Origin: Candidatus Woesearchaeota archaeon
Lineage (GTDB): Archaea; Nanobdellota; Nanobdellia; Pacearchaeales; GW2011-AR1
Direction of reading: 5' to 3'
Assembly: GCA_964576755.1 (NCBI GenBank)
Contig: CAZNUV010000004.1
Location: 740-64,739 of the forward strand
Length of the DNA: 64,000 nt
The notes under the pieces are model-generated. The model did no database searches. It saw only the letters and a program-made list of their open reading frames with translations, and was not told the origin of the DNA. Position 1 is the first letter of the stretch, and each line of letters opens with the position of its first letter. The translations under genes were made by a program, and so were the position numbers. Shown in pieces: positions 6,534 to 56,161 of this stretch.

Positions 6534-6534
6534 A

Positions 6535-29263: not shown

Positions 29264-29335
29264 GCCTCAATAGTATAGTGGTTAGTACATGGCCCTGTCG
29301 CGGCCAAGATCCGGGTTCAATCCCCGGTTGGGGCG
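29264..29335 (+). tRNA. tRNA-Asp(GTC)
   Basis: Acceptor GCCTCAA/TTGGGGC, D arm GTAT-AGTGGTTA-GTAC, anticodon stem TGGCC/GGCCA with loop CTGTCGC, T arm CCGGG-TTCAATC-CCCGG, discriminator G. Confidence 0.9.
29325..29335 (+). repeat. att core copy A (tRNA-Asp 3' end, attL)
   Basis: CGGTTGGGGCG, identical to the copies at 56125, 61074 and 62402. Confidence 0.75.
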
Positions 29336-30925: not shown

Positions 30926-31759
30926 ATGATTAAAATTCCAACTTTTCTTAAATGGATTGGAGGAAAGAGGAGACTTATTTCTCAAATAGATCCGCATCTG
31001 CCAGATAAAATTGAATCATATTATGATCCCTTTTTAGGAGCAGGTTCAATGTTTTTTTATATAAAACAGAAATATCCTCTAAAAAAATGTGTTATCTCAG
31101 ATATAAATAGGGATTTAATTGATGTTTATAAATCGGTAAGGGATAATCCTAAACAATTAATGAAATTTCTTAAATTCTATGTGAAAAACAATTCAGAAAG
31201 TTTTTATTATAAAATCAGAAAAAAGTTCAATGAACATGAGATTCATGGATTAAATAGAAGTGCTGCATTCATATATATGAATAAAACTTGTTTTAATGGG
31301 GTTTTTAGAGTAAATTCTAAGGGAGAGTTTAATGTTCCTTATGGAAAAAGAAAAAATCCTGAGATTTTTAATAAGGAGACTATTTTATTTGCGAGTAAAT
31401 TGCTTCAAGGAGTGGATATTCGATGTCAAGATTATGAAAAAATAATCTCTGAAATAAAAGATAAAGATTTTCTATATTTAGATCCTTGTTACGACCCATT
31501 AAAAAGAACGAGTTTTGCAAATTATACTGAGAAAAGATTTTGTGATAAAGATAGTGAAAGATTAAGGATATTTATCTCTAAGGTAAGGAATTTTGGAGCA
31601 AGAATTTTATTAAGCAATAATTTTGTTGACTCAATAAGGAAAAGATACCCTTTAGATCAGGGCTATGATTTAAAAATAGTTTATTGTCCAAGATCAATAA
31701 ATTCAAATGCTACGGGTAGAGGGAAAATTAAAGAATATTTAATTAAGGCAGGATATTAA
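30926..31759 (+). CDS. Dam-family (D12 class, alpha) N6-adenine DNA methyltransferase
   Basis: LKWIGGKRRL, DPFLGAGS (FxGxG), and LYLDPCYDP in place of DPPY. Confidence 0.8.
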   Translation: MIKIPTFLKWIGGKRRLISQIDPHLPDKIESYYDPFLGAGSMFFYIKQKYPLKKCVISDINRDLIDVYKSVRDNPKQLMKFLKFYVKNNSESFYYKIRKKFNEHEIHGLNRSAAFIYMNKTCFNGVFRVNSKGEFNVPYGKRKNPEIFNKETILFASKLLQGVDIRCQDYEKIISEIKDKDFLYLDPCYDPLKRTSFANYTEKRFCDKDSERLRIFISKVRNFGARILLSNNFVDSIRKRYPLDQGYDLKIVYCPRSINSNATGRGKIKEYLIKAGY

Positions 31760-31760
31760 G

Positions 31761-33374
31761 ATGGAAATTAAGACATATGAGGAATCTTTAAAAAAAATAA
31801 AAGCCAAGGGCTTGAATAATGAAGAAAAGAAAGTAAACAAGTTATTTCTAGATTTTAATTTTAATTTTATCGATTGTAATTCTAAATTTTATAGGGCTGG
31901 GGAAGAAATAGGTGAAATTGATGGGATTTTTACCTTGGGTGATGATTATTTATTTTTAATTGAAGTTGGAAAAGAGAAGGGTTCAGACAGATCTGAAAAA
32001 ATAACAAAATTTTTATCTAAATGGTCTTCTGAAGAAAATCTTAATGAAATCTTAAAAAATAAGAAAATTAAAAAAGAGATTAAAATTATTAGAATCTATG
32101 TAGATTTTTATGAAAATGGCACTAAAGTTGGATTGAATAAGGCATCCCTTCAACACCTCAATGAGGAAACAAATAAAATAATTTATGGGGAAGATATTGA
32201 ATATTATATAAAATCATATGCATTAATAGGATCTTTTGCAAAAAATGAATTATTATTTGATTTAGATTTAAAACCCCTCAAAAAAAATTATGAAGATAAG
32301 GATGCTATTAGAATCCCTTTAGGTAATAAGATGGCATTTTTATTTCATGCAACGGCAGAGGAATTATTGAATACCTCTTATATCTATCGAAAGAAGGAGT
32401 CCTCTCTAGATGGGTATCAACGAATTCTAAAACCCAATAGGGTTAACAAGATAAGAGAAGCTATACAAAAAGAAAAAATCTTAGCATTTCCTAATTCAAT
32501 TATTTTAAGTAGCCGTGAAAAATTATGTGCAGGTTTTGACAAAAGTCCTGGAATTTGTAAGATAAAAATGCCTAATAGTTATCTTTCATTCAAGGTGGTT
32601 GATGGTCAACATAGGTTAATGGGTTTTTCAAAATTAGATAAAAATTTAAGGGAAGATCATCATCTCCCTGTTGTTGCTTTTGAGGATTTAAATAAAACTG
32701 ATGAGCTTCAAACATTCATAACAATTAATACTGAACAAAAGAAAATAGATCCTAATCTTTTACTTATTCTTAAGGCAGATATTGATTTAGAAGAAAAAGA
32801 TAAATTTTTTATAGAAAAACAAGCTGTATTAATTATTAAAAAATTAAATAATGATAAAAACTTTTTTTTAAAAAATAGAATTTTTTTAGGATATAATGAG
32901 ATTAAAGGTGCGAAGATCACATTAACAACACTAGTGTCTGCAATTAAGAAAAATAATCTTATCTGTGGAAAGTATCATTTACTACAAACAAATATTTCAG
33001 AAATTGATAAACCTTATCGGGAAATTAAAAAAATTTTAATTTCTGCGAGAAAAAGTTTAAGAAGTTTTTGTAATTTGAAAAAAACGAAAAAAGCTGATAG
33101 TTTCTTTCTTTCAAATAATGGATTAAGAGTTTTATTCAGGTTAATACAATTTTTCCTAAGAAATAAAAATAAGAAATATGTAAGCTCAGAAGAGAATTAC
33201 GATAGTTTTTTTAAAGATGTCTCAGAAGTTTTATCTGGAGAAGATGTTGAAGAGTTAATGAAAGACTTTGGAGAGGGAGGATTTTCTAATGCGACTTCAA
33301 AAATAATAAAGAAACTTAAGGCATCTAAAAAAGAAAAATACAAAAAATTTAAGGAAGATTTAAGAAAGTTATAG
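31761..33374 (+). CDS. DGQHR-domain (DndB/ParB-like) protein with N-terminal nuclease-like region
   Basis: ..LDGYQRIL..NSIILS.. and ..FKVVDGQHRLMGF..FITINTEQKKI... The N-terminal ..GEIDGIF..LFLIEVGKEK.. resembles a PD-(D/E)xK core. The ATG is 1 nt after the Dam stop. Confidence 0.7.
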   Translation: MEIKTYEESLKKIKAKGLNNEEKKVNKLFLDFNFNFIDCNSKFYRAGEEIGEIDGIFTLGDDYLFLIEVGKEKGSDRSEKITKFLSKWSSEENLNEILKNKKIKKEIKIIRIYVDFYENGTKVGLNKASLQHLNEETNKIIYGEDIEYYIKSYALIGSFAKNELLFDLDLKPLKKNYEDKDAIRIPLGNKMAFLFHATAEELLNTSYIYRKKESSLDGYQRILKPNRVNKIREAIQKEKILAFPNSIILSSREKLCAGFDKSPGICKIKMPNSYLSFKVVDGQHRLMGFSKLDKNLREDHHLPVVAFEDLNKTDELQTFITINTEQKKIDPNLLLILKADIDLEEKDKFFIEKQAVLIIKKLNNDKNFFLKNRIFLGYNEIKGAKITLTTLVSAIKKNNLICGKYHLLQTNISEIDKPYREIKKILISARKSLRSFCNLKKTKKADSFFLSNNGLRVLFRLIQFFLRNKNKKYVSSEENYDSFFKDVSEVLSGEDVEELMKDFGEGGFSNATSKIIKKLKASKKEKYKKFKEDLRKL

Positions 33375-33380: not shown

Positions 33381-33995
33381 TCAAATCCACTTCCCATCCA
33401 ACTCAATCCCAATCCAACCTCTATCTAACTCCTCACAAGCCTTACAAGTCGAACCACTACCTGCAAAAGGATCCAAAACAAGATCCCCTTTCTTAGAACT
33501 ATGAAGGATCATTTTCTTTAGTAAATCAATTGGCTTTTCATGGGGATGATTAGTTTTATTATGATTAATATGGCTGCAAGTTTGAACATCAGAGAAGTTT
33601 GTTAATTTATATTTTGGCCTACCTTTCTCAAGAACCAATATCAATTCGTACTGATGCCTAAAAGCCCACCCAAGTCCAAAATTATGTTTTTTCCAAACTA
33701 CCAAATGCCTAATCTTAAACTTAGTATATCTTAAGATGAATTCTGTCAAAAATGGATAATGTTTCCAGTTAGTAAACAAATAAAGCGAACTATTCAATTT
33801 CAAAACCCGATACATTTCAACCAAAGCCGAACAATTAATTAAAGGATTCTCATTGTTTTTAATTACTTTGTTGTTCCAACCATAAGCCACATTATCTCCA
33901 TAGGGAGGATCTGTAACAATCAAATCGACACATCGGCACGGCATTTTCTGCATAACCTTAATACAATCCCCATGAATTATTTTATTCAATTCCAT
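33381..33995 (-). CDS. Beta-class N4/N6 DNA methyltransferase
   Basis: DLIVTDPPYG near the N-terminus and DPFAGSGST near the C-terminus. 204 aa. Confidence 0.8.
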   Translation of the reverse strand: MELNKIIHGDCIKVMQKMPCRCVDLIVTDPPYGDNVAYGWNNKVIKNNENPLINCSALVEMYRVLKLNSSLYLFTNWKHYPFLTEFILRYTKFKIRHLVVWKKHNFGLGWAFRHQYELILVLEKGRPKYKLTNFSDVQTCSHINHNKTNHPHEKPIDLLKKMILHSSKKGDLVLDPFAGSGSTCKACEELDRGWIGIELDGKWI

Positions 33996-34182
33996 TTTTC
34001 TTCAAAAGCTTATTTAATTTTTCCTCGATAATAATTAATTGGGGCTTTAAATAAATCCTAGATAAGCAATAATTGTTGAGACTAGTATTTTCTTCTCTCG
34101 CCAATCGTTTTAATTTCTCAATCTGAGGAGTTTCTAATACAAGATGTATTTGTGCATTCTTTTTCATGTCTTCTCCTGACAA
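33982..34182 (-). CDS. Ribbon-helix-helix (CopG/Arc-like) protein
   Basis: ..IHLVLETPQIEKLKRLAREENTSLNNYCLSRI.. has a beta-alpha-alpha pattern. It overlaps the MTase start by 14 nt. The true start may be the internal ATG (MKKNAQ..). Confidence 0.5.
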   Translation of the reverse strand: MSGEDMKKNAQIHLVLETPQIEKLKRLAREENTSLNNYCLSRIYLKPQLIIIEEKLNKLLKKNGIE

Positions 34183-34381: not shown

Positions 34382-34543
34382 ATGAAAAAAAATTGTATTC
34401 TTTGTGGTATCCCTCTTGATGAGCTTGAAGATTTATGTGAAACTTGTCTTGCTGTGATGAAAGCAAAGTACCCTGATAAAAAAGAATTTGAAAAAACCTT
34501 ACAATGGCACAAAAACCATACCAAACTAAAACAAAAACGCTGA
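34382..34543 (+). CDS. Possible small zinc-binding protein (53 aa, not in track)
   Basis: Hand translation gives MKKNCILCGIPLDELEDLCETCLAVMKAKYPDKKEFEKTLQWHKNHTKLKQKR, with a CxxC..CxxC pattern. It overlaps the next ORF by 40 nt. Confidence 0.3.
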   Translation: MKKNCILCGIPLDELEDLCETCLAVMKAKYPDKKEFEKTLQWHKNHTKLKQKR

Positions 34544-34845
34544 AAGTCCTTCCACTTGTAATCTTGCTATTGCTTGTGTTGATGCAAATTGGAATGGTTG
34601 TGGCTGCAGATGACTCTGATTTTGAAGAGATTCTAAAGCCTCTAACAACTATTTACAATCTTGTAAAATATGCAGCAACCATCATTGCAGGATTAGTAAT
34701 GCTCTTTGCAGGAGTTACATATATTTCAAGTGGTTCAGATCCGGGCAAACGAGAGAAAGCCAAGAATATGGTGATGTATGTTATCATCGGCTTAATTGTA
34801 ATCTGGGCTGCACCTTTCGTTGTAGATCTGATCTTAGGAGATTAG
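34504..34845 (+). CDS. VirB2/TrbC-like pilin candidate
   Basis: 113 aa. Basic N-terminus, signal-like helix ending ..MVVAADD, then two hydrophobic helices joined by the loop SSGSDPGKREKAKN. This is VirB2/TrbC hairpin architecture, and the gene sits upstream of VirB6- and VirB4-like genes. Confidence 0.55.
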   Translation: MAQKPYQTKTKTLKVLPLVILLLLVLMQIGMVVAADDSDFEEILKPLTTIYNLVKYAATIIAGLVMLFAGVTYISSGSDPGKREKAKNMVMYVIIGLIVIWAAPFVVDLILGD

Positions 34846-34850
34846 GTAAA

Positions 34851-35231
34851 ATGCAAATGAAAACTTTATTTATTTTTTTAATGGCAGTTGCTTTGACATT
34901 GCCCTTAGCAACTGCCTTCAATTGCACTGCTCTTGATGGCGAGAATAAGAAAGTTTGTAACTATATTGAGGGTCAACCATGGTCTCAATCTGAAAAAGAT
35001 TCTGTAATTCAAGACATGATTGATAATGGTGGAACATTAGATGGAGATTTTAATTCAATCCTTAATAAACCAGTAGAAGATACATTTCAATTAAATAAAC
35101 TTGAAGAAGTAGATTTAAAGATTAGTGATGAAAATAAAACATTTTTAATAGATTTTTCTTCAATTTCAATCTTTGGATATGTTGTTTATGCTTTTCTTAG
35201 AAAATACTATCTTCTATTAAGATTTTTATGA
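34851..35231 (+). CDS. Exported protein with C-terminal anchor
   Basis: Signal peptide (..LPLATAF|N) and a C-terminal TM. Confidence 0.45.
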   Translation: MQMKTLFIFLMAVALTLPLATAFNCTALDGENKKVCNYIEGQPWSQSEKDSVIQDMIDNGGTLDGDFNSILNKPVEDTFQLNKLEEVDLKISDENKTFLIDFSSISIFGYVVYAFLRKYYLLLRFL

Positions 35232-36055
35232 CCTCTTGCGGGATTACTAATCTTGGTTCTTGTTTAGTTGAAAAATTATTTGAGTTTATTATTTATCTTT
35301 TAAACTTACCAATTAAACCAATTTTAATTCTTATTAATAATCTGATGATTGAGCCAGTAAATATCGATATATTTGCTAGTATCTGGGCTGTAATAATCTA
35401 CATGCTTTCATTATTTTATGGAATACTTCTTTTATTTATTGGATTTAGGTTTCTAGTTTCCGGATATTCTCCAGAACAAAGGGAAAAAGCCAAGAAAAGT
35501 CTTGCAAATATTCTAATTATGATGGTTCTAATTCAAATAAGTTTTTTTCTTTATTCATTAGTTTTAGAGATAATGGCTTCAATGACTGCAGTAGTCTATA
35601 ATTCAATCCCTTCAGATTTTTTCTTAATAACTTTGGATAGTTTTAGTAATATGGGTCTAGAATTGACTTTATTACTTCCTTATGTTGCAATATTAGTAAT
35701 AACGTTGATTTTTCTTACATTAAGATATATTTGTGTAGGTGTTGGAGTTGTTTTCTTTGCTATTGGGATTTTCTTTTACTTTATTGAGCCATTGGAAGCT
35801 TATGGAAAATTAATCTTAAATTATCTGGGGGTTTTGATAGCATTGCCTTTCTTTTATTCAATTATCCTTTTAGCTTCTTCAAAGTTTTTAGAAATCGGAA
35901 TTTTTTCAAATTTGAAAATCTTAGTAATGATTGGGGGCTTTGGCCTTGTTAATTTATTTACATTATTCCTAGCTTTATTTGTAATTTTTAAAGCAGCAAA
36001 TGCAATTGCAACACCTGTAAGTCAGGTAGTAAGCATTGTGGGTGCAGGAGCTTAA
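35228..36055 (+). CDS. VirB6/TrbL-like polytopic membrane protein
   Basis: 275 aa with about 6-7 TM segments. It overlaps the upstream stop (ATGA) and is followed after 1 nt by the VirB4-like gene. Confidence 0.5.
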   Translation: MTSCGITNLGSCLVEKLFEFIIYLLNLPIKPILILINNLMIEPVNIDIFASIWAVIIYMLSLFYGILLLFIGFRFLVSGYSPEQREKAKKSLANILIMMVLIQISFFLYSLVLEIMASMTAVVYNSIPSDFFLITLDSFSNMGLELTLLLPYVAILVITLIFLTLRYICVGVGVVFFAIGIFFYFIEPLEAYGKLILNYLGVLIALPFFYSIILLASSKFLEIGIFSNLKILVMIGGFGLVNLFTLFLALFVIFKAANAIATPVSQVVSIVGAGA

Positions 36056-36056
36056 A

Positions 36057-39000
36057 ATGTATGAGATTCCTCAACAATTAGAGTATAAGGAAAAAATAGT
36101 CTTTGGATTAACATTTCCACAATTAGCTTATGCTCTTGTATTTTTCCCTTTTGTTTTCTCATTTTTGTTTAAGATTAATGCAGATATTTATGTGAGAGTT
36201 TTTCTAGCTTCAATTCCGGCATTACTAGCTTCTGGATTTATGTTTTTTGATTTAAGTGGAAAGATAAAAAGAGGATATATTTGGTTTAAACTTCGAGAAA
36301 TAAGAACTGAGAAACAAAAAAAATTAGACCTAGAAAAAAGGCAAGGAGAACTAGAAAAAAGAAGGGAAGATAAATTAGAGAATAAACAAAAACCCAAGGG
36401 GGAGAAGCCTGAAAAGAAAATTGAAAAAGAAAAGCCCGAAAGGAATGATGTTAAGAATTTTTTTAAAATAGAAAAAATAGAAAAAAATATTATTCATTAT
36501 GACAACAAAAAAATTGCTGTTCTGAGAGTTGACTCATTAAACTTTGGAATAAAGCCCTTGAAGGAGCAGGAGACAATTATGTTATCTTTCCAGAAATTCT
36601 TAAATTCAATTGATTTTCCAATTCAAATTTTAATGACTACAGAAACATTAGACTTAGAGGATTATCTTGGATGTCTTGCTAATAAGATAATTGAAGAAAG
36701 GAATCGGGAGATTTTTGATTCATATAAATCCCATATGAAAAATTTAATTGAGAAGAATAGTGCGATGAATAGGAATTTTTATATTGTTATTCCAGAAGTT
36801 AGTGATCTTGAAATTCAAATGAGATTATGTGAAGAAAGACTTCATAGCTTAAATCTTAAGACTTATCGACTAAAGAAATCAGAATTAGAGAAGATGTTTT
36901 CTAAAATTTTTGGATCAAAAAAGATGTTACCCGAATCTATAAAAAATTCTCCAGATTTTGTTGAGGTCGATGGCAAATTCCACAAAATAATTTATGCTCA
37001 TGGATACCCAAGGTCAGTTGAAAAAGGCTTTTTGGACAGATTAGTTAGTTGCTCAGGGAACTTTGATTTTTCCCTACATATAACTCCCCGTCCAATAGAA
37101 GAAACTTTAATTTTATTAAATAGAGAGTTACAAAAGCAAAGGGCGGATATTTATTCAGCAAAGATAAAGAATCAGTTTAATCCTAGTCTTGAAATAAAAT
37201 ATAAGGACACTAAAGCAGTTCTTACAAACTTACAGAAGGGAAACGAGAAACTTTTCAATATTAGCTTTTATATTAATTGTAGGGCAGATAACTTAAAGGA
37301 ACTTAAGCTTCTAGCTAGGAAAATTGAGTCCGAACTTAATTCCTTGCTTATTATTCCAAGACAGCCAAACTTTAGGATGATTCAAGGATTCAAATCCTGC
37401 TTGCCATTAGCTAAGGATTTTTTAAGGGCGACTAGAAATATTACAACTTCGGCACTGTCGGCATTTTTCCCATTTACATCTTCCTTCTTTAAGTTTGATG
37501 AAACTGGTGTGTGGTTTGGACTAAATAAAAATAATATCCCTATAATTCGAGATATTTTCAAATTATCTAACTCTAATGGGATGTGTTTGGCTAGTTCCGG
37601 GGCGGGGAAAAGTTATATGGCAAAACTTTTCATAACAAGACATTTGCTTAATGGGACAAAAGTTATTGTGATTGATCCTCAAGGCGAATATAAAAACTTA
37701 GTTGAAAAATTTAAGGGTCAAAGAATTAATCTTTCTAGAACTTCCAATACTATGATTAATCCCTTGGATTTAATGGGGCACGATTACGCTGAGAAAAGAC
37801 TTTCTCTGATGGATTTAATGCCTGTTATGTTAGGGCAATTAACCGAGCCTCAGAAGTCATTTATTGATCAGGCTTTGACCGAAGCTTATGAGAGAAAAGA
37901 GATTTATATGAATGATAAGAAGAGTTGGGCTAACGAACCGCCGATTTTAGGCGACGTGTTAAATGTTCTACAGACAATGGAGGAAACGGCTATTAATCTC
38001 GAGAAAACTACCTTACGAAGCCTAATAAACCGACTACGGCTATATGTCGATGGGGTTTTCTCTTTTTTGAATAGGCATACTAATATAGATTTTAAGAATA
38101 ATTTTGTTTGCTTTGATATTGGTAATATGCCAAGACAGGTTAAGCCGACAATTATGTTTTTGGTACTTGATTATGTTTACATGAAGATGAAAAAGGATAT
38201 CAATAGAAAACTTCTAGTTATTGATGAGGCTTGGTCTTTGCTGTCTAGAGCAGAAGAGGCATCCTATATTTTTGAGATTGTGAAGACTTGTCGTAAATTC
38301 AATATGGGACTTTTCTTAATTAATCAAGAAGTTGAAGGTATGCTTAACTCTGAGGCGGGGCGTTCAGCCCTTGCCAATTCTTCTTATACAATCTTACTTA
38401 GACAAAAACCTGCAGTAATTGATGGCATTCAGAAAGTTTTTCATTTGAGTAATGTGGAGAGAATTGCATTGCTAACTGCGGGAGTGGGTGAAGGTATACT
38501 CTTAATGGAAGATGAACATTCTGAATTGAAAATAGTTGCCTCAAAAGAAGAACATAAACAGATCACAACTAATGCGGATGAGCTTCTTGAGGCAGAACCT
38601 GAAGAAGAAGTCAAGGGCAAAAAGGTCAATGTCAAAGTTGATGAAAATGAAAGAGTTCATTTATCTAAGGACTTATCTGAAGGCGACAAAACTTATTTGA
38701 GTAGAAAAAGATTTGGAGAAGTTAAGTATAAAGGAATCGATGGAAAGTTTCACAAATATTTTGTTAAGAAATACAAGAATGAATCACCACAGCATATGAT
38801 TTGGGTTTATGAAATTTCCAATTATTTAAAGAAGTTCACAAATAAGATTGAAACTCCTAGGACTGCTAAGGCAGATATTATTTTTGAGGTTAAGGGTAAA
38901 AAATATGGGATTGAAGTGGAGACTGGGAAATTAATTAAGAAGGATAAATCTAAAATTGAAAATAAAGTTAAGTATCTTAATTCAGATTTTGATAAAAATT

Positions 39001-39110
39001 GGTTTTTCTTTGTGACTAATCTTCATCTAAAGAAAAAATATCAAAAGTTTGGTAGTGCATTTGACCATAGGGGAATAAAAAGAAAAGTTACTAATTTATT
39101 CAAAAAGTAG
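36057..39110 (+). CDS. VirB3/PrgI-like membrane domain fused to a VirB4/TrbE-family ATPase, with an extra C-terminal domain
   Basis: N-terminus ..EYKEKIVFGLTFPQLAY.. plus two TM segments (PrgI/VirB3-like). Walker A ASSGAGKSY, Walker B LLVIDEAW. About 185-aa tail with ..ADIIFEV..YGIEVETGK... Track start TTG 36036; ATG 36057 preferred. Confidence 0.8.
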   Translation: MYEIPQQLEYKEKIVFGLTFPQLAYALVFFPFVFSFLFKINADIYVRVFLASIPALLASGFMFFDLSGKIKRGYIWFKLREIRTEKQKKLDLEKRQGELEKRREDKLENKQKPKGEKPEKKIEKEKPERNDVKNFFKIEKIEKNIIHYDNKKIAVLRVDSLNFGIKPLKEQETIMLSFQKFLNSIDFPIQILMTTETLDLEDYLGCLANKIIEERNREIFDSYKSHMKNLIEKNSAMNRNFYIVIPEVSDLEIQMRLCEERLHSLNLKTYRLKKSELEKMFSKIFGSKKMLPESIKNSPDFVEVDGKFHKIIYAHGYPRSVEKGFLDRLVSCSGNFDFSLHITPRPIEETLILLNRELQKQRADIYSAKIKNQFNPSLEIKYKDTKAVLTNLQKGNEKLFNISFYINCRADNLKELKLLARKIESELNSLLIIPRQPNFRMIQGFKSCLPLAKDFLRATRNITTSALSAFFPFTSSFFKFDETGVWFGLNKNNIPIIRDIFKLSNSNGMCLASSGAGKSYMAKLFITRHLLNGTKVIVIDPQGEYKNLVEKFKGQRINLSRTSNTMINPLDLMGHDYAEKRLSLMDLMPVMLGQLTEPQKSFIDQALTEAYERKEIYMNDKKSWANEPPILGDVLNVLQTMEETAINLEKTTLRSLINRLRLYVDGVFSFLNRHTNIDFKNNFVCFDIGNMPRQVKPTIMFLVLDYVYMKMKKDINRKLLVIDEAWSLLSRAEEASYIFEIVKTCRKFNMGLFLINQEVEGMLNSEAGRSALANSSYTILLRQKPAVIDGIQKVFHLSNVERIALLTAGVGEGILLMEDEHSELKIVASKEEHKQITTNADELLEAEPEEEVKGKKVNVKVDENERVHLSKDLSEGDKTYLSRKRFGEVKYKGIDGKFHKYFVKKYKNESPQHMIWVYEISNYLKKFTNKIETPRTAKADIIFEVKGKKYGIEVETGKLIKKDKSKIENKVKYLNSDFDKNWFFFVTNLHLKKKYQKFGSAFDHRGIKRKVTNLFKK

Positions 39111-39339: not shown

Positions 39340-40338
39340 ATGACTAAAGAAAAATTTACGGTTGTAGAATTATTTGCAGGAGCAGGGGGTCTTGCTATCG
39401 GGCTGGAAAAAGCGGGATTAAAAAATGTGTTCTTAAATGAAATAGATAAGGATTGCGTTAATACTTTGAAAAAAAATAGGCCTAAATGGAATATAGTTCA
39501 TGAAGATGTGAGAAAATTAGATTTTAAAGGAATAAAAGCAGATGTTGTAACAGGAGGATTTCCATGTCAAGCGTTTAGTTATGCTGGAAAAAGATTAGGA
39601 TTTGAAGATACTAGGGGGACATTATTCTTTGAATTTGCTAGAGCTATAAAAGAAATACAACCTAAAATATTTATTGGAGAAAATGTAGCTGGATTAGTTT
39701 CTCATGACAAAGGTCAAACATTGAAAACTATGATTAGAATTTTGGAAGAAGACTTAGATCATTATGATATTCAGTATAAAGTATTAAACGCAACAGATTA
39801 TTCTGTTCCTCAAAAGAGAAAGAGGATATTAATTGTTGGTACAAAAAAAGGATTTAAATTTGAATATCCAAAAAAACATGAGAAAGTAGTTGTTCTGAGA
39901 GAAGCTTTGAAAGATGTTCCTAAATCTGTAGGTACACAATATTCAGAAAAAAGAAAAAAGGTTTTAGATTTAGTACCTCCCGGAGGTTGTTGGATAAATC
40001 TTCCAGAAGACATTAAAAAAGAGTTTATGGGGGTTAGTTTCCATAGTGGAGGTGGAAAAAGGGGGATGGCTAGAAGAATCTCTTGGGATGAGCCTTGTTT
40101 AACTTTAACAACTTCCCCTTCACAAAAACAAACTGAACGGTGTCATCCTAAAGAAACTAGGCCTTTTACAGTAAGAGAATATGCCAGAATTCAGACATTT
40201 CCTGATGATTGGGAATTTACTGGGAGCATTTCTTCTCAATATAAACAGATTGGTAATGCGGTGCCTGTAAAATTAGCAGAAGAAGTAGGTAAAGAAATAA
40301 TCAAGACTTTAAAATCATTTAATGAAATGCATAATTAA
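39340..40338 (+). CDS. DNA (cytosine-5) methyltransferase
   Basis: ELFAGAGGL (motif I), GGFPCQAFS (motif IV), ENV (motif VI), QIGNAVP (motif X). TAAGGAGGT precedes the ATG. Confidence 0.92.
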   Translation: MTKEKFTVVELFAGAGGLAIGLEKAGLKNVFLNEIDKDCVNTLKKNRPKWNIVHEDVRKLDFKGIKADVVTGGFPCQAFSYAGKRLGFEDTRGTLFFEFARAIKEIQPKIFIGENVAGLVSHDKGQTLKTMIRILEEDLDHYDIQYKVLNATDYSVPQKRKRILIVGTKKGFKFEYPKKHEKVVVLREALKDVPKSVGTQYSEKRKKVLDLVPPGGCWINLPEDIKKEFMGVSFHSGGGKRGMARRISWDEPCLTLTTSPSQKQTERCHPKETRPFTVREYARIQTFPDDWEFTGSISSQYKQIGNAVPVKLAEEVGKEIIKTLKSFNEMHN

Positions 40339-41020
40339 AGAATTCTAAAAGTTTTGTCATTTCTATTTCATTTATAGAAAATTCAGATTTTCTTAGATCC
40401 TTTATTGCTAAAGCAAGAGCTTTCCAAGTTTTTTCTAGAGCTTTAGGATCTCCAGTAACTAATTCATATACTTTACTTCCCCAAACCTTTCTTATTCTTT
40501 CATCACTTTTTCCGCCCTTTTTCCAAATAATATCTCCAGAATCTCCGTTTTTACTAACTAAAAATGCCCAATAAGCCTTAACTTTGGGATTATTTCTTAC
40601 AGCCATTTCTAATTTATCTCGACATTTATCAGTAGAATCTGAATTCATAGTATTAAATTTATTTTTTAATTCAATAAAAATGCTTTTATCTGATTTCATG
40701 AGATCTACTTTTGAATCATCTCCAACACCTAAATCTACCCACCCATTTACTTTGCCCAACAACTTTTGATGGAATTCCCCTATTCGATTATTGATAGTTT
40801 TGTCATTTTGTCTTATTCTTTCTGAGGAGATCCATTCATCAGTTTGTAATTCTCCGTTTATTATATCAAAAATTAATTTAAAAGGATCAATAGTATTTTT
40901 CTGCAATTTTTTCATATCTATTTCTTCTGAATCTGTAGGATATGCTTCACAAACCCATTTAACACACTTTAAAAAATCTTCATCAGACACAAAGTCCACA
41001 TATTTATTTTTGTTAGCCAT
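40319..41020 (-). CDS. Type II restriction endonuclease candidate (Eco47II/Sau96I-like by recollection)
   Basis: Convergent with the m5C MTase, with a 20-nt overlap. ..KVDLMKSDKSIFIELKNKFNTMNS.. looks like a D..E-x-K core. The family name is from memory of similar sequences and was not searched. Confidence 0.55.
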   Translation of the reverse strand: MANKNKYVDFVSDEDFLKCVKWVCEAYPTDSEEIDMKKLQKNTIDPFKLIFDIINGELQTDEWISSERIRQNDKTINNRIGEFHQKLLGKVNGWVDLGVGDDSKVDLMKSDKSIFIELKNKFNTMNSDSTDKCRDKLEMAVRNNPKVKAYWAFLVSKNGDSGDIIWKKGGKSDERIRKVWGSKVYELVTGDPKALEKTWKALALAIKDLRKSEFSINEIEMTKLLEFFNYAFH

Positions 41021-41284: not shown

Positions 41285-41677
41285 TTATTTTAATTTTTTC
41301 CTCAAATCATCTAAATCTTCATAAACAATAATCTTATCTGCACAAGCCTCTAAAAAGTTGGCTTCTGTGCCTTTTTGATGGATAATTATAATTTTCTTCT
41401 TTAATGCTTTTGCATATCCTACCTCAAAATAAACTCCATTTGCTTTTTCAGAAGCCTCAACAAGAAGAGCATCACATTTTTCTATTGTCTTGTACGCTTT
41501 TTTTACAACCTCTTTGATTGGCATTTTAATCTTACCCCAATCTTGTGTATCTCTAAAAAATATAAATGTTTTATAGCCTAAAGTTTCTTCCACAACATTA
41601 CTTAATTCTTCAAGCTTTTGTTTTAACAAAACAGGATCAGAATCCTTAAATTTATAAGCTATGTATATTTTTTTCAT
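41285..41677 (-). CDS. Nucleoside 2-deoxyribosyltransferase-like (NDT/Rcl fold) protein
   Basis: 130 aa. MKKIYIAYKF.. Rossmann-like start and ..GVYFEVGYAKALKKKIIII.., which matches the catalytic Glu / G-x-A / GK-P-h block of the family. Confidence 0.6.
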   Translation of the reverse strand: MKKIYIAYKFKDSDPVLLKQKLEELSNVVEETLGYKTFIFFRDTQDWGKIKMPIKEVVKKAYKTIEKCDALLVEASEKANGVYFEVGYAKALKKKIIIIHQKGTEANFLEACADKIIVYEDLDDLRKKLK

Positions 41678-41678
41678 T

Positions 41679-43043
41679 TTAAGCTACTTTTATTTTTCTC
41701 CTACTTCCACTAGGATAATATAGATTATAAGCTTTTCTTAGCATTTCATTTAATTGTTTTGGACTAGCCTCACAAAAAGACAAATCATTACTTATATGAT
41801 ATTTATCAAAATTCTGATTGGGAATATCTAAGGGGACTTGATCTTGCAAATGATTATATGCTTGAAGCTGTTTATCTCCATATTTTTTTCTTAAGGAATT
41901 ATACATCTTAGTTCCTGGATAAGCCTTAACTAAAACAAAACAAGCAGTATCAGTATTAAGCTCTCTTGCTAAGTTTAGTGTTTGATTCATTTCACTTAAT
42001 GTTTCAGTTGGAAATCCAAACATATAATATGCCTTTGTTCTTATCCCAACTTCCTGACAATATTGAACAGCTTTTCTTGCCTGTTCAGGAGTTGTTCCTT
42101 TTTTAATTGAATCTAAAATTCTTTGGCTTCCTGATTCAATTCCAAAAACCAATTGATAACAACCTGCTTGATTAATTTTCTGTAAAAATTCTTTTCCAAA
42201 TCTTGCAGTAATATCTGTTCTAGCTAATGCTCTCCACTTAATCCCTAAATCTCTTTTCTGCAATTCTTCAGCTAAGTGCAAGACCCTATCTTGATTATAA
42301 ATAAAATCATTATCTAAGAAATGGACAGAATTAATGCCATATTCCTGTTTTAACATTTCCATTTCATTTACAATATTTTCTATACTTCTAGTCCTAATTT
42401 TTCTGCCAGAGGTTAGTGGAGCAGAACAAAAACTACAGATATAAGGACATCCCCTTGAACCCATAATAACAGATTTTAAATTTCCATTTTCTTGATAAGG
42501 ATCTTTTACAAAAAAATATCTATTAATAAAAGGTAAAGAATCTAAATCTTCAATTTTCTCTCTTTCAGGATTATGTATAATTTTATTTCCAGAAAAGTAT
42601 GAAATTCCTTTAACCCCTAGAGGGTTAAAATTATTATTAAGAAGTTCTGTTAAAGTTAATTCCCCTTCGCCTCGGACCAAGATATCAGTCTCAGGAATTA
42701 ATTTTAAAGATTGCTCAGGATTAATTGTTGCATGAGTTCCGCCAGTAATAATTTTAGTTTTGGGACTTTTCTGCTTAATCTCTTGAACAATTTGTTTGCT
42801 TAAATTAATGGTGGGAGTTATAAGATTTATTCCAACCAAATCAGGGTTTTCAGATAATGCACTATCGACAGATTGTTCTAAGGATAATCCTTTTGCTTCA
42901 GAATCAATAAGTCTAACATTATGTCCTAAATTTTGGGCAGTTGTAGCTAAGTAACCTAACCCAATTGGGGGTGTGGTGTAGTATTCTTTCTTTGCTTTCT
43001 TTCCGTAATCTTGTAATGGTGAATTAATAAAAATTATGTCCAT
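41679..43043 (-). CDS. B12-binding-domain radical SAM enzyme (class B)
   Basis: N-terminal B12-binding-like Rossmann region (..PPIGLGYLAT..LVGINL..IITGGTHAT..) followed by GSRGCPYICSFCS (CxxxCxxC). Confidence 0.8.
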   Translation of the reverse strand: MDIIFINSPLQDYGKKAKKEYYTTPPIGLGYLATTAQNLGHNVRLIDSEAKGLSLEQSVDSALSENPDLVGINLITPTINLSKQIVQEIKQKSPKTKIITGGTHATINPEQSLKLIPETDILVRGEGELTLTELLNNNFNPLGVKGISYFSGNKIIHNPEREKIEDLDSLPFINRYFFVKDPYQENGNLKSVIMGSRGCPYICSFCSAPLTSGRKIRTRSIENIVNEMEMLKQEYGINSVHFLDNDFIYNQDRVLHLAEELQKRDLGIKWRALARTDITARFGKEFLQKINQAGCYQLVFGIESGSQRILDSIKKGTTPEQARKAVQYCQEVGIRTKAYYMFGFPTETLSEMNQTLNLARELNTDTACFVLVKAYPGTKMYNSLRKKYGDKQLQAYNHLQDQVPLDIPNQNFDKYHISNDLSFCEASPKQLNEMLRKAYNLYYPSGSRRKIKVA

Positions 43044-43059
43044 AATAACTCCAGTTACC

Positions 43060-44972: not shown

Positions 44973-45251
44973 ATGAAACAAACACCTATAAAAAATAGTC
45001 CTCTTCTTCCAAGAAGAATAATCAATGTAAAAGGAAAAGTCCATTATAGTGAGAGTAATCAGGCTTGGAACACTATTAAACTAAAAACAGAATTTCTTAA
45101 TGAATTTCAACAATTAAAAGAAAAAAGATCCAAGTTTTCTTATGAAATGTTATTTGGAAGAACTGAAGAAGAAATGGTTGAAGCTATAAAGAAAATTATA
45201 AAAGATAAAAATTTGATGCCGATTTTGATGTTTTTGTATAAGGATGGGTAA
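44973..45251 (+). CDS. Hypothetical protein
   Basis: 92-aa ORF just upstream of the next gene. Confidence 0.4.
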   Translation: MKQTPIKNSPLLPRRIINVKGKVHYSESNQAWNTIKLKTEFLNEFQQLKEKRSKFSYEMLFGRTEEEMVEAIKKIIKDKNLMPILMFLYKDG

Positions 45252-56124: not shown

Positions 56125-56161
56125 CGGTTGGGGCGTACGGACAAAGTGTCCCATTTCATGG
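56125..56161 (+). repeat. att core copy B plus downstream arm
   Basis: CGGTTGGGGCG followed by TACGGACAAAGTGTCCCATTTCATGG. Flanked by CCATGAAA (56095-56102) and TTTCATGG (56154-56161). Confidence 0.75.

What the first reader, a model, noticed from the sequence alone, without database searches (positions are those of the whole stretch)
34382..39110. Minimal VirB2 / VirB6 / VirB3-VirB4 module on an archaeal integrated element, with no relaxase or coupling ATPase
Five tightly packed co-directional genes:
- a small CxxC..CxxC peptide
- a 113-aa protein with VirB2/TrbC pilin architecture (signal plus a two-helix hairpin)
- an exported anchored protein
- a polytopic VirB6/TrbL-like protein
- a 1017-aa protein that starts with a PrgI/VirB3-like two-TM module (..EYKEKIVFGLTFPQL..) and continues into a VirB4/TrbE ATPase (Walker A GAGKSY, Walker B VIDEAW)

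I recognised no VirD4/TraG-type coupling protein, relaxase, VirB8-11 or secretin-like gene anywhere in the element. The same three-part core (pilin, VirB6-like, VirB4-like) defines the crenarchaeal Ced/Ted DNA-import machines, which are homologous to conjugation systems. A comparable set on a mobile element of a DPANN-like, presumably host-attached archaeon could be a reduced conjugation apparatus. It could also be a DNA-uptake or cell-cell bridge device.
Basis: partly seen in the sequence, partly recalled or inferred. Interest (0 to 1): 0.75.

Follow-up and report, generated by a model that had tools for sequence, protein, structure and literature searches.

The report
Minimal pilus-type DNA-transfer module, DPANN element
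A small mobile element in a tiny DPANN archaeon carries a stripped-down type IV secretion (conjugation-type) machine whose motor ATPase is fused to a predicted nuclease; the family is widespread in these archaea and I found no description of it in the papers I could search.

Summary
At 34382-39110 five tightly packed co-directional genes encode:
- a Zn-ribbon peptide
- a VirB2/TrbC-type pilin, above Pfam's gathering scores
- an exported, C-terminally anchored protein
- a polytopic VirB6-like protein whose N-terminus is homologous to the pilin
- a 1017-aa VirB4 ATPase with an N-terminal PrgI/VirB3-like two-TM module

No coupling ATPase (T4CP), relaxase or VirB8-11 was found in the element or conserved in 83 related loci.

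New here:
- The last ~160 residues of VirB4 form a confidently modelled PD-(D/E)xK nuclease-like domain with invariant acidic residues. It is present in 118 of 120 homologues. Elsewhere it is a separate membrane-anchored protein, in the one context recovered directly after VirB4.
- The module is the backbone of a large family of elements in Woese-/Pace-/Nanoarchaeota, often integrated at tRNA-Asp and carrying defence cargo.
- The ATPase resembles monoderm-bacterial (MPF-FATA-type) VirB4, not Ced.
- The element runs beyond the stated span, from about 29.3 kb to at least 45.3 kb, perhaps 56.1 kb.

Most likely it is a minimal conjugation-type apparatus. The direction of DNA flow is unproven. Rating: new variant of a known kind.

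The parts
29264..29335 (+). tRNA-Asp(GTC), the integration target. Its 3' end CGGTTGGGGCGT (29325-29336) is the att-like core.
   Evidence: ARAGORN and Rfam. A tRNA-Asp lies directly upstream of the integrase in 8 related loci. The core recurs 4 times in the window against 0.01 expected.
29425..30603 (+). Tyrosine recombinase (integrase) of the element
   Evidence: Pfam Phage_integrase, E 5e-11; weak XerA-like NCBIfam hit; conserved cluster 6 in 25 loci.
30926..33374 (+). Variable cargo slot: Dam-type N6-adenine methyltransferase (30926-31759) and a DGQHR/DndB/DpdB-like protein (31761-33374)
   Evidence: Pfam MethyltransfD12 1e-53 and DndB 4e-11; TIGR03187 DGQHR 7e-34; PADLOC DpdB 2e-15. Not conserved in related loci.
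33381..33995 (-). Backbone N4/N6 DNA methyltransferase, divergent from the T4SS operon
   Evidence: Pfam N6_N4_Mtase 1e-34; cluster 2 in 37 of 83 loci, about 6 genes upstream of VirB4.
33982..34182 (-). Small RHH (CopG-like) protein, probable regulator of the divergent promoter region
   Evidence: Weak Pfam RHH_7 hit, E 3e-3; cluster 4 in 32 loci.
34382..34543 (+). 53-aa CxxC...CxxC zinc-ribbon peptide, first gene of the operon
   Evidence: ORF; weak DZR_2 hit; cluster 3 in 33 loci, always same strand. A TATA-like TTTATAAT lies about 20-27 nt upstream (inference).
34504..34845 (+). VirB2/TrbC-type pilin: signal peptide followed by a two-helix hairpin
   Evidence: PF18895 2.5e-14 and PF04956 7.5e-10, both above gathering score. 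NCBIfam Mycoplasma ICE pilin-like 4e-7. Present in 67 of 83 loci by tblastn.
34851..35231 (+). Exported protein with a C-terminal TM anchor. It is the short form of a variable surface protein; the long form is about 449 aa in other loci.
   Evidence: No family hits. Shares the signal peptide, C..C and EKD N-terminal motif with the cluster-5 449-aa proteins (E 3e-4). One form or the other occupies this position in 33 of 41 upstream-complete loci.
35228..36055 (+). VirB6/CedA-like polytopic membrane protein with a pilin-like N-terminal hairpin
   Evidence: BLASTP against the pilin, E 2e-9 over 65 aa. PF18895 hits in 22 of 33 homologues. Faint TrbL_3 hit in a homologue. AF2 model pLDDT 83, all-helical. 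Top Foldseek hits are TrwI/VirB6 8rtd_L, 8rt9_F and 7o3v_G, E 0.07-0.23. Present in 76 of 83 loci.
36057..36281 (+). N-terminal two-TM PrgI/VirB3-like module of the ATPase (residues 1-75)
   Evidence: PrgI PF12666, E 6e-4 to 3e-3, below cut-off. PF12666 is precomputed for some of the 120 homologues. N-terminal residues are invariant.
36414..38576 (+). VirB4/TraC-type ATPase proper (residues ~120-840), with Walker A 515-520 and Walker B 721-726
   Evidence: PDB 4AG5, E 2e-30. NCBIfam CD1110 VirB4 5e-93, Mbov_0397 1e-87, TraC 1e-44. Pfam P-loop_TraG, DUF87, AAA_10. The nearest plasmid relatives are Firmicutes, Actinobacteria and Mollicutes VirB4.
38622..39110 (+). C-terminal domain of the ATPase (residues 856-1017): a small beta-alpha-beta-beta subdomain followed by a PD-(D/E)xK nuclease-like core. 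E909, H913, D940 and E953 are invariant in 24 and in 28 homologues; E955 is in at least 90%.
   Evidence: Present in 118 of 120 homologues. Invariant columns. AF2 pLDDT 91, pTM 0.86. Foldseek neighbours are mostly PD-(D/E)xK enzymes, best E 7e-3, prob 0.92. Split form in L085.
39340..41020 (.). Cargo: type II restriction-modification pair, Dcm-type C5 methyltransferase (39340-40338, +) and Eco47II-family endonuclease (40319-41020, -)
   Evidence: Pfam DNA_methylase 1e-89 and RE_Eco47II 1.5e-53.
41285..44804 (-). Cargo cassette: nucleoside 2-deoxyribosyltransferase-like, B12-binding radical SAM, 367-aa wHTH protein and HAD hydrolase
   Evidence: Pfam. The radical SAM protein hits PADLOC candidate PDC-M51A, 2e-23. 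The same cassette lies next to VirB4 in L021, L040, L043 and L084.
44973..45251 (+). Conserved 92-aa protein that marks the right end of the element family (cluster 8)
   Evidence: Cluster 8 in 23 loci, downstream of VirB4 on the same strand. In L010 the right-hand direct repeat lies 150 bp past it.
56125..56136 (+). First downstream exact copy of the tRNA-Asp 3' end, followed by an arm like the one between the tRNA and the integrase. Possible outer attR of the element or of a composite.

Best explanation
The five genes are the mating-channel and pilus module of a small integrative element of a Woese-/Pacearchaeota-type DPANN archaeon. The element sits at tRNA-Asp.

Shown by the searches:
- A Sec-type pilin of the VirB2/TrbC family.
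- A polytopic VirB6-like platform with a pilin-like N-terminal hairpin.
- A surface-exposed anchored protein of variable length.
- A membrane-tethered VirB4 hexamer-type ATPase of the monoderm (MPF-FATA-like) kind.
- A PD-(D/E)xK-like domain that is either fused to the C-terminus of VirB4 or encoded as a separate membrane-anchored protein, in the one context recovered directly after VirB4.
- A tyrosine integrase, a backbone DNA methyltransferase, an RHH regulator and swappable defence cargo.

Inferred mechanism:
1. The integrase excises the element as a circle.
2. The RHH and Zn-ribbon proteins control the operon.
3. VirB4 pulls pilin out of the single membrane and assembles a VirB2-type pilus or channel on the VirB6-like platform.
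4. The variable surface protein mediates contact with a target cell.
5. The nuclease-like domain, held at the cytoplasmic mouth of the channel, nicks or cuts the DNA substrate.
6. VirB4 itself drives the DNA through the channel.

On this reading, one protein stands in for relaxase, coupling protein and assembly ATPase. I favour export of the element itself, that is, conjugation. The direction of transfer is not established.
For: Component identities.

Mobile-element context:
- The integrase lies next to tRNA-Asp in the window and in 8 other loci.
- L010 has a clean 15-nt direct repeat bounding an element of about 14.7 kb.
- The tRNA 3' end occurs 4 times in the window against 0.01 expected.
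- The backbone is conserved around variable cargo of R-M systems, Fic, reverse transcriptase and OLD-type ATPases.
- Several genomes carry two or three copies; one genome's copies are 82% and 57% identical to the window's VirB4.
- About a third of the roughly 15-kb backbone is the T4SS module, which suggests it serves the element's own spread (inference).

Nuclease link:
- The domain is in 118 of 120 homologues, with invariant E, H, D and E residues.
- The model is confident and its structural neighbours are mostly PD-(D/E)xK nucleases, nickases and resolvases.
- Fusion and fission with VirB4: 62 standalone 2TM-nuclease representatives, and in L085 the split gene overlaps the end of virB4 by 4 nt.

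No T4CP or relaxase appears in the element or as a conserved family in 83 loci.

Precedent: archaeal conjugative plasmids and ICEs lack relaxases (PMC9905601; PMC6563490).
Against: - The archaeal conjugative elements described in the papers I read (Sulfolobus plasmids, thaumarchaeal ICEs) carry a VirD4/TraG partner, and bacterial conjugative T4SSs generally do. This family has none within 10 kb.
- T4SSs that lack a T4CP are typically importers or non-DNA secretors, for example Ced and Ptl.
- A T4CP or relaxase could be encoded elsewhere in the genome. Only 64 kb is visible here.
- The PD-(D/E)xK assignment rests on weak Foldseek scores (best E 7e-3, TM 0.3-0.45). The canonical Lys position is E/x, and no sequence profile hit was found.
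- Only 16 of 41 upstream-complete loci show an integrase within 10 kb, so some copies may be fixed or domesticated.
- No oriT, replication module, excised circle or empty site was demonstrated.
- In the window no att repeat lies directly after the 92-aa end gene.
Confidence: 0.5

Rival explanations
1. DNA-uptake machine (Ced/Ted- or ComB-like). The pilus and channel pull DNA from a neighbouring or host cell into the DPANN cell. The membrane-proximal nuclease degrades or trims one strand on entry, for recombination or for nucleotide scavenging. The module would then be beneficial cargo rather than the element's own transfer device.
For: - The gene set of pilin, VirB6-like and VirB4-like proteins without T4CP or relaxase is the composition of Ced/Ted importers (PMC9905601; PMC11868833).
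- About half of Ced-type ATPases carry TM helices, as this VirB4 does.
- DPANN, like Patescibacteria, show depleted nucleotide-biosynthesis gene content (bioRxiv 10.64898/2026.06.21.733656).
- A nuclease tethered at the cytoplasmic face fits processing of incoming DNA (inference).
Against: - The module is the conserved backbone of an integrase-bearing, multi-copy, cargo-swapping element. An importer does not spread the element that encodes it.
- By sequence the ATPase is MPF-FATA-type VirB4, not CedB/CedD.
- The Ced genes studied are chromosomal and induced by DNA damage. Here the context is an RHH/methyltransferase backbone.
Confidence: 0.25
2. Host-interaction organelle. A VirB2-type pilus and channel is used by the episymbiont to attach to its host or to move proteins or metabolites across, as proposed for the relaxase-less T4SS of Patescibacteria. 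DNA would not be the substrate.
For: - The Patescibacteria T4SS has a similar composition (VirB4, PrgI, VirB6, VirB2-like pilins, mostly no relaxase). Several of its component genes (PrgI, VirB6, the pilin array) were essential for epibiotic growth in the one strain tested (PMC12102498).
- Tubular structures that may be T4SS pili were seen at a parasite-host interface.
- The surface protein in the operon varies in length (126 versus about 449 aa), as an adhesin might.
Against: - The Patescibacteria system is chromosomal and often near the origin of replication. This one sits on integrative elements, often in several divergent copies, with defence cargo.
- A conserved nuclease-like domain fused to the motor points to DNA as the substrate.
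- No effector-like conserved genes were found.
Confidence: 0.13
3. Decayed remnant of a once complete conjugative element that lost its coupling protein and relaxase. The module would be non-functional or only a pilus-forming relic.
For: - Only 16 of 41 upstream-complete loci show an integrase within 10 kb.
- No att repeat lies directly after the end gene in the window.
- Degenerate att-like junctions and integrase-less cassettes lie downstream.
Against: - The same reduced gene set recurs in 409 matches in species-representative genomes and in more than 700 protein clusters.
- Open reading frames are intact, Walker motifs are invariant and mean column identity is 60%.
- No relative in the 83 loci retains a T4CP.
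- The absence is therefore ancestral to the family, not decay.
Confidence: 0.05

Closest known systems
Monoderm-bacterial MPF-FATA conjugation systems (for example Clostridioides Tn-type CD1110-family VirB4 with PrgI, and Mycoplasma/Spiroplasma ICE with Mbov_0395 pilin-like and Mbov_0397 VirB4)
   Same: - The best sequence matches for the ATPase: NCBIfam 5e-93 and 1e-87; plasmid tblastn 23-33% identity.
- The pilin and the VirB6-like N-terminus weakly hit the Mycoplasma ICE pilin-like model.
- A PrgI-type VirB3 module is present.
- The envelope has a single membrane.
   Different: - Scores fall below the curated equivalog cut-offs.
- The host is archaeal.
- There is no T4CP, relaxase, VirB1 or VirB8-like gene.
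- VirB3 is fused to VirB4.
- VirB4 carries a C-terminal nuclease-like domain that none of the 2266 plasmid matches covers.
Patescibacteria (CPR) T4SS (PMC12102498)
   Same: - Ultrasmall episymbiont lineage.
- MPF-FATA-derived VirB4 with PrgI/VirB3, VirB6 and VirB2-like pilins of PF18895/PF04956.
- A relaxase is absent from most clusters.
   Different: - The CPR system is chromosomal, often near dnaA, and no VirB3-VirB4 fusions were found there.
- T4CP homologues exist in most CPR genomes.
- Here the module is on integrase-bearing elements at a tRNA gene, VirB3 is fused, and a nuclease domain is attached.
Crenarchaeal Ced and Ted DNA-import systems
   Same: - Core of a VirB2-like pilin, a VirB6-like channel whose N-terminus resembles the pilin, and a VirB4-like, often TM-anchored ATPase.
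- No relaxase and no T4CP.
   Different: - No detectable sequence membership: CedD scores only 35 bits against a 600-bit cut-off.
- The Ced genes studied are chromosomal and UV/DNA-damage-inducible. Ced also needs Ups pili and the extra paralogues CedD and CedE.
- The DPANN module is a compact operon on a mobile element.
Archaeal conjugative plasmids and ICEs (Sulfolobus pNOB8-type plasmids; thaumarchaeal ICEs, PMC6563490)
   Same: Archaeal integrative or conjugative elements with VirB4, VirB6 and VirB3 homologues, an integrase and no relaxase.
   Different: - Those elements carry a VirB4 and VirD4/TraG pair, TFIIB/ParB and type IV pilus genes.
- They are larger. A degraded 20.2-kb thaumarchaeal element is described as half ICE size.
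- The DPANN elements have a backbone of about 12-16 kb, no VirD4, a VirB2-type pilin and a VirB4-nuclease fusion.
PD-(D/E)xK nucleases acting on DNA structures (NucS/EndoMS, Hjc, Bax1, Nt.BspD6I nickase, Can2/Cdn1 nuclease domains, YaeQ)
   Same: Predicted alpha-beta-beta-beta-alpha-beta core with a helix Glu, a 'PD' strand and an acidic 'E-x-E' strand. These proteins are the structural neighbours of the model.
   Different: - No sequence-profile match was found.
- The lysine of the (D/E)xK triad is not at the canonical position.
- The domain is tethered to a T4SS ATPase or to a two-TM anchor.

Membership tests
VirB4/TraC/TrbE T4SS ATPase family | FtsK-HerA-type P-loop C-terminal domain specifically similar to VirB4, with intact Walker A and B motifs | tested here: met
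   PDB 4AG5 VirB4 CTD, E 2e-30, over residues 481-837. Pfam P-loop_TraG 9e-28 and AAA_10. G515, G517, K518, S519 and D723, E724 are invariant.
VirB4/TraC/TrbE T4SS ATPase family | VirB4-type N-terminal domain upstream of the P-loop | tested here: met
   NCBIfam alignments span residues 120-836 (Mbov_0397) and 287-818 (CD1110). PF26593 TraC-like is precomputed for all homologues. A weak TraC_F_IV hit is also present.
VirB4/TraC/TrbE T4SS ATPase family | Reaches the curated cut-off of a named bacterial equivalog (CD1110, Mbov_0397, TraC, VirB4_CagE) | tested here: not met
   312.8 against 325 bits; 294.5 against 590; 152.5 against 567; 97 against 643. It is a distinct clade, not an equivalog of any of these.
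VirB2/TrbC conjugative pilin | Profile match above Pfam gathering score, and a signal peptide followed by a two-TM hairpin with a basic loop | tested here: met
   PF18895 53.5 bits (cut-off 26.6) and PF04956 39.3 bits (cut-off 27.9). The sequence reads MAQKP...VVA/ADD signal, then two hydrophobic helices around SGSDPGKREKAKN.
VirB2/TrbC conjugative pilin | Assembles into a lipid-containing extracellular pilus | not testable with these tools
   Needs microscopy or cryo-EM.
VirB6/TrbL/CedA channel protein | Polytopic helical membrane protein encoded next to VirB4, with an N-terminal region homologous to the cognate pilin | tested here: met
   All-helical AF2 model with 8 helices of 13-49 residues and a 4-residue turn, pLDDT 83. 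The gene ends 1 nt before virB4. BLASTP against the pilin, E 2e-9. The relation is described for VirB6/VirB2 and CedA/CedA1 in PMC9905601.
VirB6/TrbL/CedA channel protein | Sequence or structure match to known VirB6/TrbL | tested here: inconclusive
   No Pfam TrbL hit for the window protein. A 'faint' TrbL_3 hit is on record for a homologue. The profile search against PDB gave no hits. The top 3 of the first 4 Foldseek hits are TrwI/VirB6, but at E 0.07-0.23 and TM 0.2-0.37.
VirB3/PrgI | Short two-TM protein or module preceding or fused to VirB4, matching the PrgI/VirB3 profile | tested here: inconclusive
   PrgI PF12666 at 18-21 bits against a 27-bit cut-off. Some of the 120 homologues carry a precomputed PF12666 hit. 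Position and topology fit.
Integrative and conjugative element (ICE) | Integrase plus att sites at a chromosomal target | tested here: met
   Tyrosine recombinase beside tRNA-Asp. Direct repeats of the tRNA 3' end. L010 has a clean 15-nt direct repeat pair.
Integrative and conjugative element (ICE) | Type IV coupling protein (VirD4/TraG/TcpA) | tested here: not met
   None in the window element. None among conserved clusters or Walker-A ORFs of 83 loci. The rest of the genome could not be searched.
Integrative and conjugative element (ICE) | Relaxase and oriT | tested here: not met
   No relaxase or Rep family hit. The only hint is a weak NikA-like RHH at 57608-58297, outside the element. A relaxase is also absent from the archaeal conjugative plasmids and ICEs described in PMC9905601 and PMC6563490.
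Integrative and conjugative element (ICE) | Demonstrated excision and cell-to-cell transfer | not testable with these tools
   Needs junction reads or experiments.
Ced/Ted DNA-import systems | Sequence membership of CedA/A1/B/D or TedA/B/C, with a chromosomal and (for Ced) DNA-damage-inducible context | tested here: not met
   The only Ced model hit is CedD, 35 bits against a 600-bit cut-off, over the P-loop. The locus is on a mobile element.
PD-(D/E)xK nuclease superfamily (C-terminal domain of VirB4) | Alpha-beta-beta-beta-alpha-beta core fold | tested here: met
   AF2 pLDDT 91. Secondary-structure order is H56-69, E86-90, E93-100, H109-123, E127-131. Foldseek neighbours are mostly PD-(D/E)xK proteins. 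Scores are modest.
PD-(D/E)xK nuclease superfamily (C-terminal domain of VirB4) | Catalytic E...(P)D...(D/E)xK residues | tested here: inconclusive
   E909, D940 (in 'PD') and E953 are invariant in 24 and in 28 homologues; E955 is invariant in the 24 and in at least 90% of the 28. The canonical Lys position is occupied by E955, and K958 varies. Activity is untested.

The most novel reading that the evidence does not exclude
A relaxase-free and coupling-protein-free conjugation machine. In this DPANN element family a single membrane-anchored polypeptide (VirB3-VirB4-PD-(D/E)xK) would assemble the pilus, cut the excised element DNA and pump it through a VirB6-like pore. That would be a smaller self-transfer apparatus than any described in the papers I read. 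It would also give a concrete candidate for the long-missing DNA-processing enzyme of archaeal conjugation. A still more unusual version is that the same machine imports host DNA and the tethered nuclease converts it into nucleotides for a cell that cannot make them.
Probability: 0.35. Interest if true: 0.88.

Novelty: new variant of a known kind. Interest (0 to 1): 0.72.

Why it matters
- DPANN archaea are abundant, host-dependent and almost uncultured, and my literature searches found no conjugation-type or T4SS-bearing element described for them.
- This family has 409 matches in species-representative genomes, often several per genome, and carries restriction-modification and other defence genes. 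It may be a major route of gene flow in these lineages.
- Pipelines of the kind described in PMC13323075 require a relaxase and a coupling protein, so they would not call these elements.
- The VirB4-nuclease fusion and its split form offer a testable answer to a long-standing question: how archaeal conjugation-type systems process DNA without a relaxase.
- The system defines a minimal VirB2/VirB6/VirB3-4 core working in a single-membrane envelope. That is relevant to the evolution of T4SS, Ced/Ted and the Patescibacteria system.

Tried and rejected
- **11-nt repeat as attR.** AAGATCCGGGT occurs at 29306 and 41251. I rejected it as the right boundary for four reasons. It matches a different part of the tRNA. 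It does not align with the other att-like junctions. It is not significant once all tRNA 11-mers are considered. The cassette and the 92-aa end gene beyond it are syntenic with VirB4 in other loci.
- **Sequence searches for the C-terminal domain.** Pfam at E up to 10, PDB phmmer, a PDB profile search, PHROGs and PADLOC gave nothing meaningful. Only structure prediction gave a lead.
- **The 275-aa protein.** The profile search against PDB sequences gave no hits. Pfam gave no TrbL hit for the window protein.
- **Promoter, terminator and inverted-repeat scans** around the operon were no better than shuffles or were AT-rich noise, and no oriT candidate emerged.
- **IMG/VR viral contigs** hold no VirB4 relative. 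With no PHROG hits, a provirus reading is rejected.
- **Coupling protein among Walker-A ORFs.** Of the 20 Walker-A ORFs of 300 aa or more in 83 loci, the 8 scanned were defence-type ATPases (AAA_14/DUF4143, AAA_21, AAA_13, OLD), two without any hit, and one HerA-like protein in a single locus.
- **Exact direct repeats flanking integrase and end gene.** Only L010 gave a convincing pair.
DUF87 is hit, but the VirB4-specific models and structure score far higher.

Full report
**1. Observation**

- 34382-34543, 53 aa, CxxC...CxxC
- 34504-34845, 113 aa
- 34851-35231, 126 aa
- 35228-36055, 275 aa
- 36057-39110, 1017 aa

All lie on the + strand, with overlaps or gaps of 40, 5, 4 and 1 nt. This is an operon-like block. 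A TATA-like TTTATAAT lies about 20-27 nt before the first ATG (inference).

The window is archaeal: aIF2-gamma, aIF5B and Kae1, plus gyrase. It has about 30% G+C. Close homologues of the genes come from MAGs labelled Pacearchaeota, Woesearchaeota or Nanoarchaeota. 'DPANN-like' is therefore right.

**2. Component identities**

*Pilin.* It passes Pfam's gathering scores for T4SS_pilin (PF18895, E 2.5e-14) and TrbC/VirB2 (PF04956, E 7.5e-10). The sequence shows a signal peptide followed by a two-helix hairpin around a basic loop.

*ATPase.* It is a VirB4, not a generic HerA/FtsK protein:
- PDB 4AG5 (VirB4 of Thermoanaerobacter), E 2e-30, over residues 481-837.
- NCBIfam VirB4 CD1110 family, E 5e-93; Mycoplasma ICE VirB4, E 1e-87; TraC, 1e-44; VirB4_CagE, 9e-28. 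CedD scores only 6e-9 over the P-loop.
- The nearest plasmid-borne relatives are Firmicutes, Actinobacteria and Mollicutes VirB4s at 23-33% identity.
- None of the curated equivalog cut-offs is reached, so this is a separate clade of the monoderm (MPF-FATA-like) kind.

*N-terminal module.* The two-TM module gives only sub-threshold PrgI hits. Some homologues carry a precomputed PrgI hit.

*The 275-aa protein.* It has no family hit of its own. Four lines point to a VirB6-like identity:
- Residues 49-113 are homologous to the pilin (BLASTP E 2e-9). This is the relation Beltran et al. describe between CedA and CedA1 and between VirB6 and VirB2 (PMC9905601).
- 22 of 33 homologues hit PF18895, and one has a faint TrbL_3 hit.
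- An AF2 model (pLDDT 83) is an all-helical bundle.
- Its best PDB neighbours are TrwI/VirB6 chains from three R388 T4SS entries, with weak scores of E 0.07-0.23.

I regard 'VirB6-like' as moderately supported.

*The 126-aa protein.* It has a signal peptide and a C-terminal anchor. It shares its N-terminal motif with a roughly 449-aa protein that occupies the same position in other loci (E 3e-4). It is a surface protein of variable length.

**3.

Residues ~856-1017 of VirB4 match no sequence family. They are nevertheless present in 118 of 120 homologues. E909, H913, D940 (in a literal 'PD') and E953 are invariant in both alignments. E955, in 'EVETGK', is invariant in 24 homologues and kept in at least 90% of 28.

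AF2 with a 28-sequence alignment gives pLDDT 91 and pTM 0.86. The model has a small beta-alpha-beta-beta subdomain followed by an alpha-beta-beta-beta-alpha-beta core.

Foldseek against PDB returns mostly PD-(D/E)xK proteins: YaeQ, Cdn1/Can2, NucS/EndoMS, Bax1, HindIII, Hjc, the nickase Nt.BspD6I, Mus81 and the R2 endonuclease. The best E is 7e-3 with prob 0.92. Scores are modest and the canonical lysine is displaced. The fold assignment is likely; catalytic activity is inferred.

A profile of this domain finds 703 representatives among 1.84 billion. Many are standalone proteins of about 290-370 aa with two N-terminal TM helices, a charged coiled-coil linker and the same domain. Of the roughly 85 mid-length representatives, 62 are of this kind. 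In L085 such a gene overlaps by 4 nt the end of a virB4 that is 81% identical to the window's over its C-terminal ATPase part and ends without the domain. This fusion and fission ties the nuclease-like module functionally to VirB4 and places it at the cytoplasmic face of the membrane.

**4. The element and its family**

The search for related loci returned 409 confirmed matches in species-representative genomes. The best 80 are nearly all from DPANN MAGs, apart from a few contigs under other bin labels. Several genomes carry two or three copies; one genome's two copies are 82% and 57% identical to the window's VirB4.

I clustered ORFs from 83 loci. The recurrent order is:
1. integrase
2. variable cargo
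3. N4/N6 methyltransferase (opposite strand)
4. RHH (opposite strand)
5. Zn-ribbon
6. pilin
7. surface protein (126 aa or about 449 aa)
8. VirB6-like protein
9. VirB4
10. variable cargo
11. often a tandem Lrp/AsnC regulator (opposite strand)
12. a conserved 92-aa protein

Cargo is mostly defence-type:
- type I R-M
- Dcm
- Fic
- DUF2779
- reverse transcriptase
- MT-A70
- OLD and AbiEii-like ATPases
- a recurring deoxyribosyltransferase, radical-SAM, wHTH and HAD cassette

The window follows this plan. Its copy of the 92-aa gene is at 44973-45251. The element therefore extends well beyond the finding's span and beyond the 11-nt repeat at 41251, which I reject as the boundary.

A tRNA-Asp lies directly upstream of the integrase in the window and in 8 other loci; tRNA-Glu and tRNA-Cys each do so in one locus. 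In L010 a 15-nt repeat of the tRNA 3' end bounds an element of about 14.7 kb that ends 150 bp after the 92-aa gene.

In the window the tRNA 3' end CGGTTGGGGCGT recurs at 56125, 61074 and 62402, against 0.01 expected. Each copy has an arm resembling the one between the tRNA and the integrase. The outer limit of the element, or of a composite, may be 56.1 kb. Small integrase-less cassettes follow it.

**5. What is absent**

No VirD4/TraG/TcpA, relaxase, VirB8-11 or secretin family is hit by any ORF of 90 aa or more between 29.4 and 63.9 kb. The PHROGs scan of ten selected proteins gave no hit.

Across 83 loci no further conserved family exists. Of the scattered Walker-A ORFs, the eight scanned were defence-type ATPases or gave no hit, plus one HerA-like gene in a single locus.

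The module is not viral: IMG/VR holds no relatives.

A T4CP or relaxase elsewhere in the genome cannot be excluded from 64 kb.

**6. Mechanism**

*Shown:* the component families, the operon, the mobile-element context and the fusion/fission of the nuclease-like domain.

*Inferred:*
- The integrase excises the element.
- VirB4 extracts the pilin and builds a pilus or channel on the VirB6-like platform in a single-membrane envelope.
- The variable surface protein contacts the partner cell.
- The tethered nuclease-like domain nicks or cuts the DNA.
- VirB4 translocates the DNA.

I favour self-transfer (conjugation), at about 0.5. The module is the conserved backbone of a cargo-swapping, multi-copy integrative element, together with a methyltransferase of the kind mobile elements use to protect incoming DNA (my own knowledge).

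The main rival is Ced/ComB-like DNA import, at about 0.25. It fits the absence of a T4CP and the position of the nuclease, but not the selfish-element context.

A host-interaction organelle like the Patescibacteria T4SS (PMC12102498) is at about 0.13. A decayed remnant is at about 0.05 and is contradicted by family-wide conservation.

**7. Comparison and novelty**

The closest known systems are:
- monoderm MPF-FATA conjugation systems, by sequence
- the Patescibacteria T4SS, by composition and lifestyle
- Ced/Ted, by the three-part core without relaxase or T4CP
- thaumarchaeal ICEs and Sulfolobus plasmids, as archaeal ICEs without a relaxase but with VirD4

This family differs from all of them in four ways. 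It combines a VirB2-type pilin, a VirB3-VirB4 fusion and a nuclease-like domain. The Patescibacteria survey found no VirB3-VirB4 fusions. It lacks a T4CP. It resides on small elements that often integrate at tRNA-Asp in DPANN archaea.

Seven full-text searches found no description of a DPANN T4SS or ICE. The only DPANN item is the VirB4-like domain of the giant nanohaloarchaeal 'SPEARE' proteins, which is a different architecture. The library is incomplete, so prior description elsewhere cannot be excluded.

I rate the finding a new variant of a known kind, with interest 0.72.

Noticed in passing
window 56125-56136, 60474-60510, 61074-61115, 62402-62443: Array of att-like junctions downstream of the element. 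Each is the tRNA-Asp 3' end (CGGTTGGGGCGT, degenerate at 60474) followed by an arm of about 35 nt like the one between the tRNA and the integrase. The junctions delimit small integrase-less segments: 56.1-60.5 kb (TrmB-like, MNT-type nucleotidyltransferases, weak NikA-like RHH), 60.5-61.07 kb (GNAT) and 61.07-62.4 kb (HEPN + MNT pair). This looks like tandem accretion of cis-mobilizable cassettes, or an integron-like array using a tRNA-derived site.
   Followed up: partly
window 41285-44804 (- strand); also L021, L040, L043, L084: A four-gene cassette recurs as cargo next to VirB4 in several unrelated DPANN genomes: nucleoside 2-deoxyribosyltransferase-like, B12-binding radical SAM, wHTH protein of about 370 aa, and HAD hydrolase. 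The radical SAM protein hits the PADLOC candidate defence family PDC-M51A (2e-23). It may be a DNA-modification or defence system.
   Followed up: partly
L085 698-1804 and representatives P0244, P0245, P0248, P0251, P0256, P0261, P0278, P0291: Standalone proteins of about 290-370 aa with two TM helices, a charged coiled-coil linker and the same PD-(D/E)xK-like domain. In L085 the gene directly follows a virB4 that lacks the domain. This is a split form of the window's fusion. Their wider genomic contexts could not be surveyed because the contigs are short.
   Followed up: partly
window 46719-50111 (-), 50113-52632 (-), 53362-55785 (+): Three very large proteins (1130, 839 and 807 aa) with Ig-like (Big_7), CARDB or MopE-like hits, consistent with surface proteins; the 807-aa one has a hydrophobic N-terminus. 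They lie between the 92-aa end gene and the first downstream att-like repeat. It is unclear whether they are cargo of the element, a second decayed element, or chromosomal adhesins of an episymbiont.
   Followed up: no
window 30926-33374: The cargo slot between the integrase and the backbone methyltransferase holds a Dam-type methyltransferase and a 537-aa DGQHR (DndB/DpdB-like, ParB-fold) protein. Neither is conserved in related elements. A ParB-like nuclease has been proposed to process DNA for Ced transfer (PMC11868833), so this one could matter here. It is not part of the family backbone.
   Followed up: no
window 29306-29316 and 41251-41261: Exact 11-nt repeat AAGATCCGGGT, from the tRNA T-arm, lies in the intergenic region after the Eco47II gene. 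It is probably chance, or a relic of an older junction. It does not align with the other att-like sites.
   Followed up: yes
L007/L020 (JAGVXH010000003), L019/L021 (JAIORZ010000011), L001/L029 (CAZNJU010000001), L051/L081 (JAHWHZ010000001): Single DPANN contigs of 0.25-0.76 Mb carry two copies of the module. Copies in one genome differ widely in identity to the window's VirB4 (for example 82% and 57%). This suggests repeated independent acquisitions rather than recent duplication.
   Followed up: partly
window 4074-9042: Bacterial-type DNA gyrase genes gyrB and gyrA are present in this DPANN genome fragment. This is an ordinary housekeeping observation.
   Followed up: no
L016, L020, L021, L078 and window 27877-28197: A conserved gene of about 82 aa (cluster 19) precedes the tRNA-Asp/integrase junction in several genomes. 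A Na+/H+ exchanger and seryl-tRNA synthetase pair precedes it in others (L002, L010, L018). The same chromosomal site is therefore occupied in different species.
   Followed up: no
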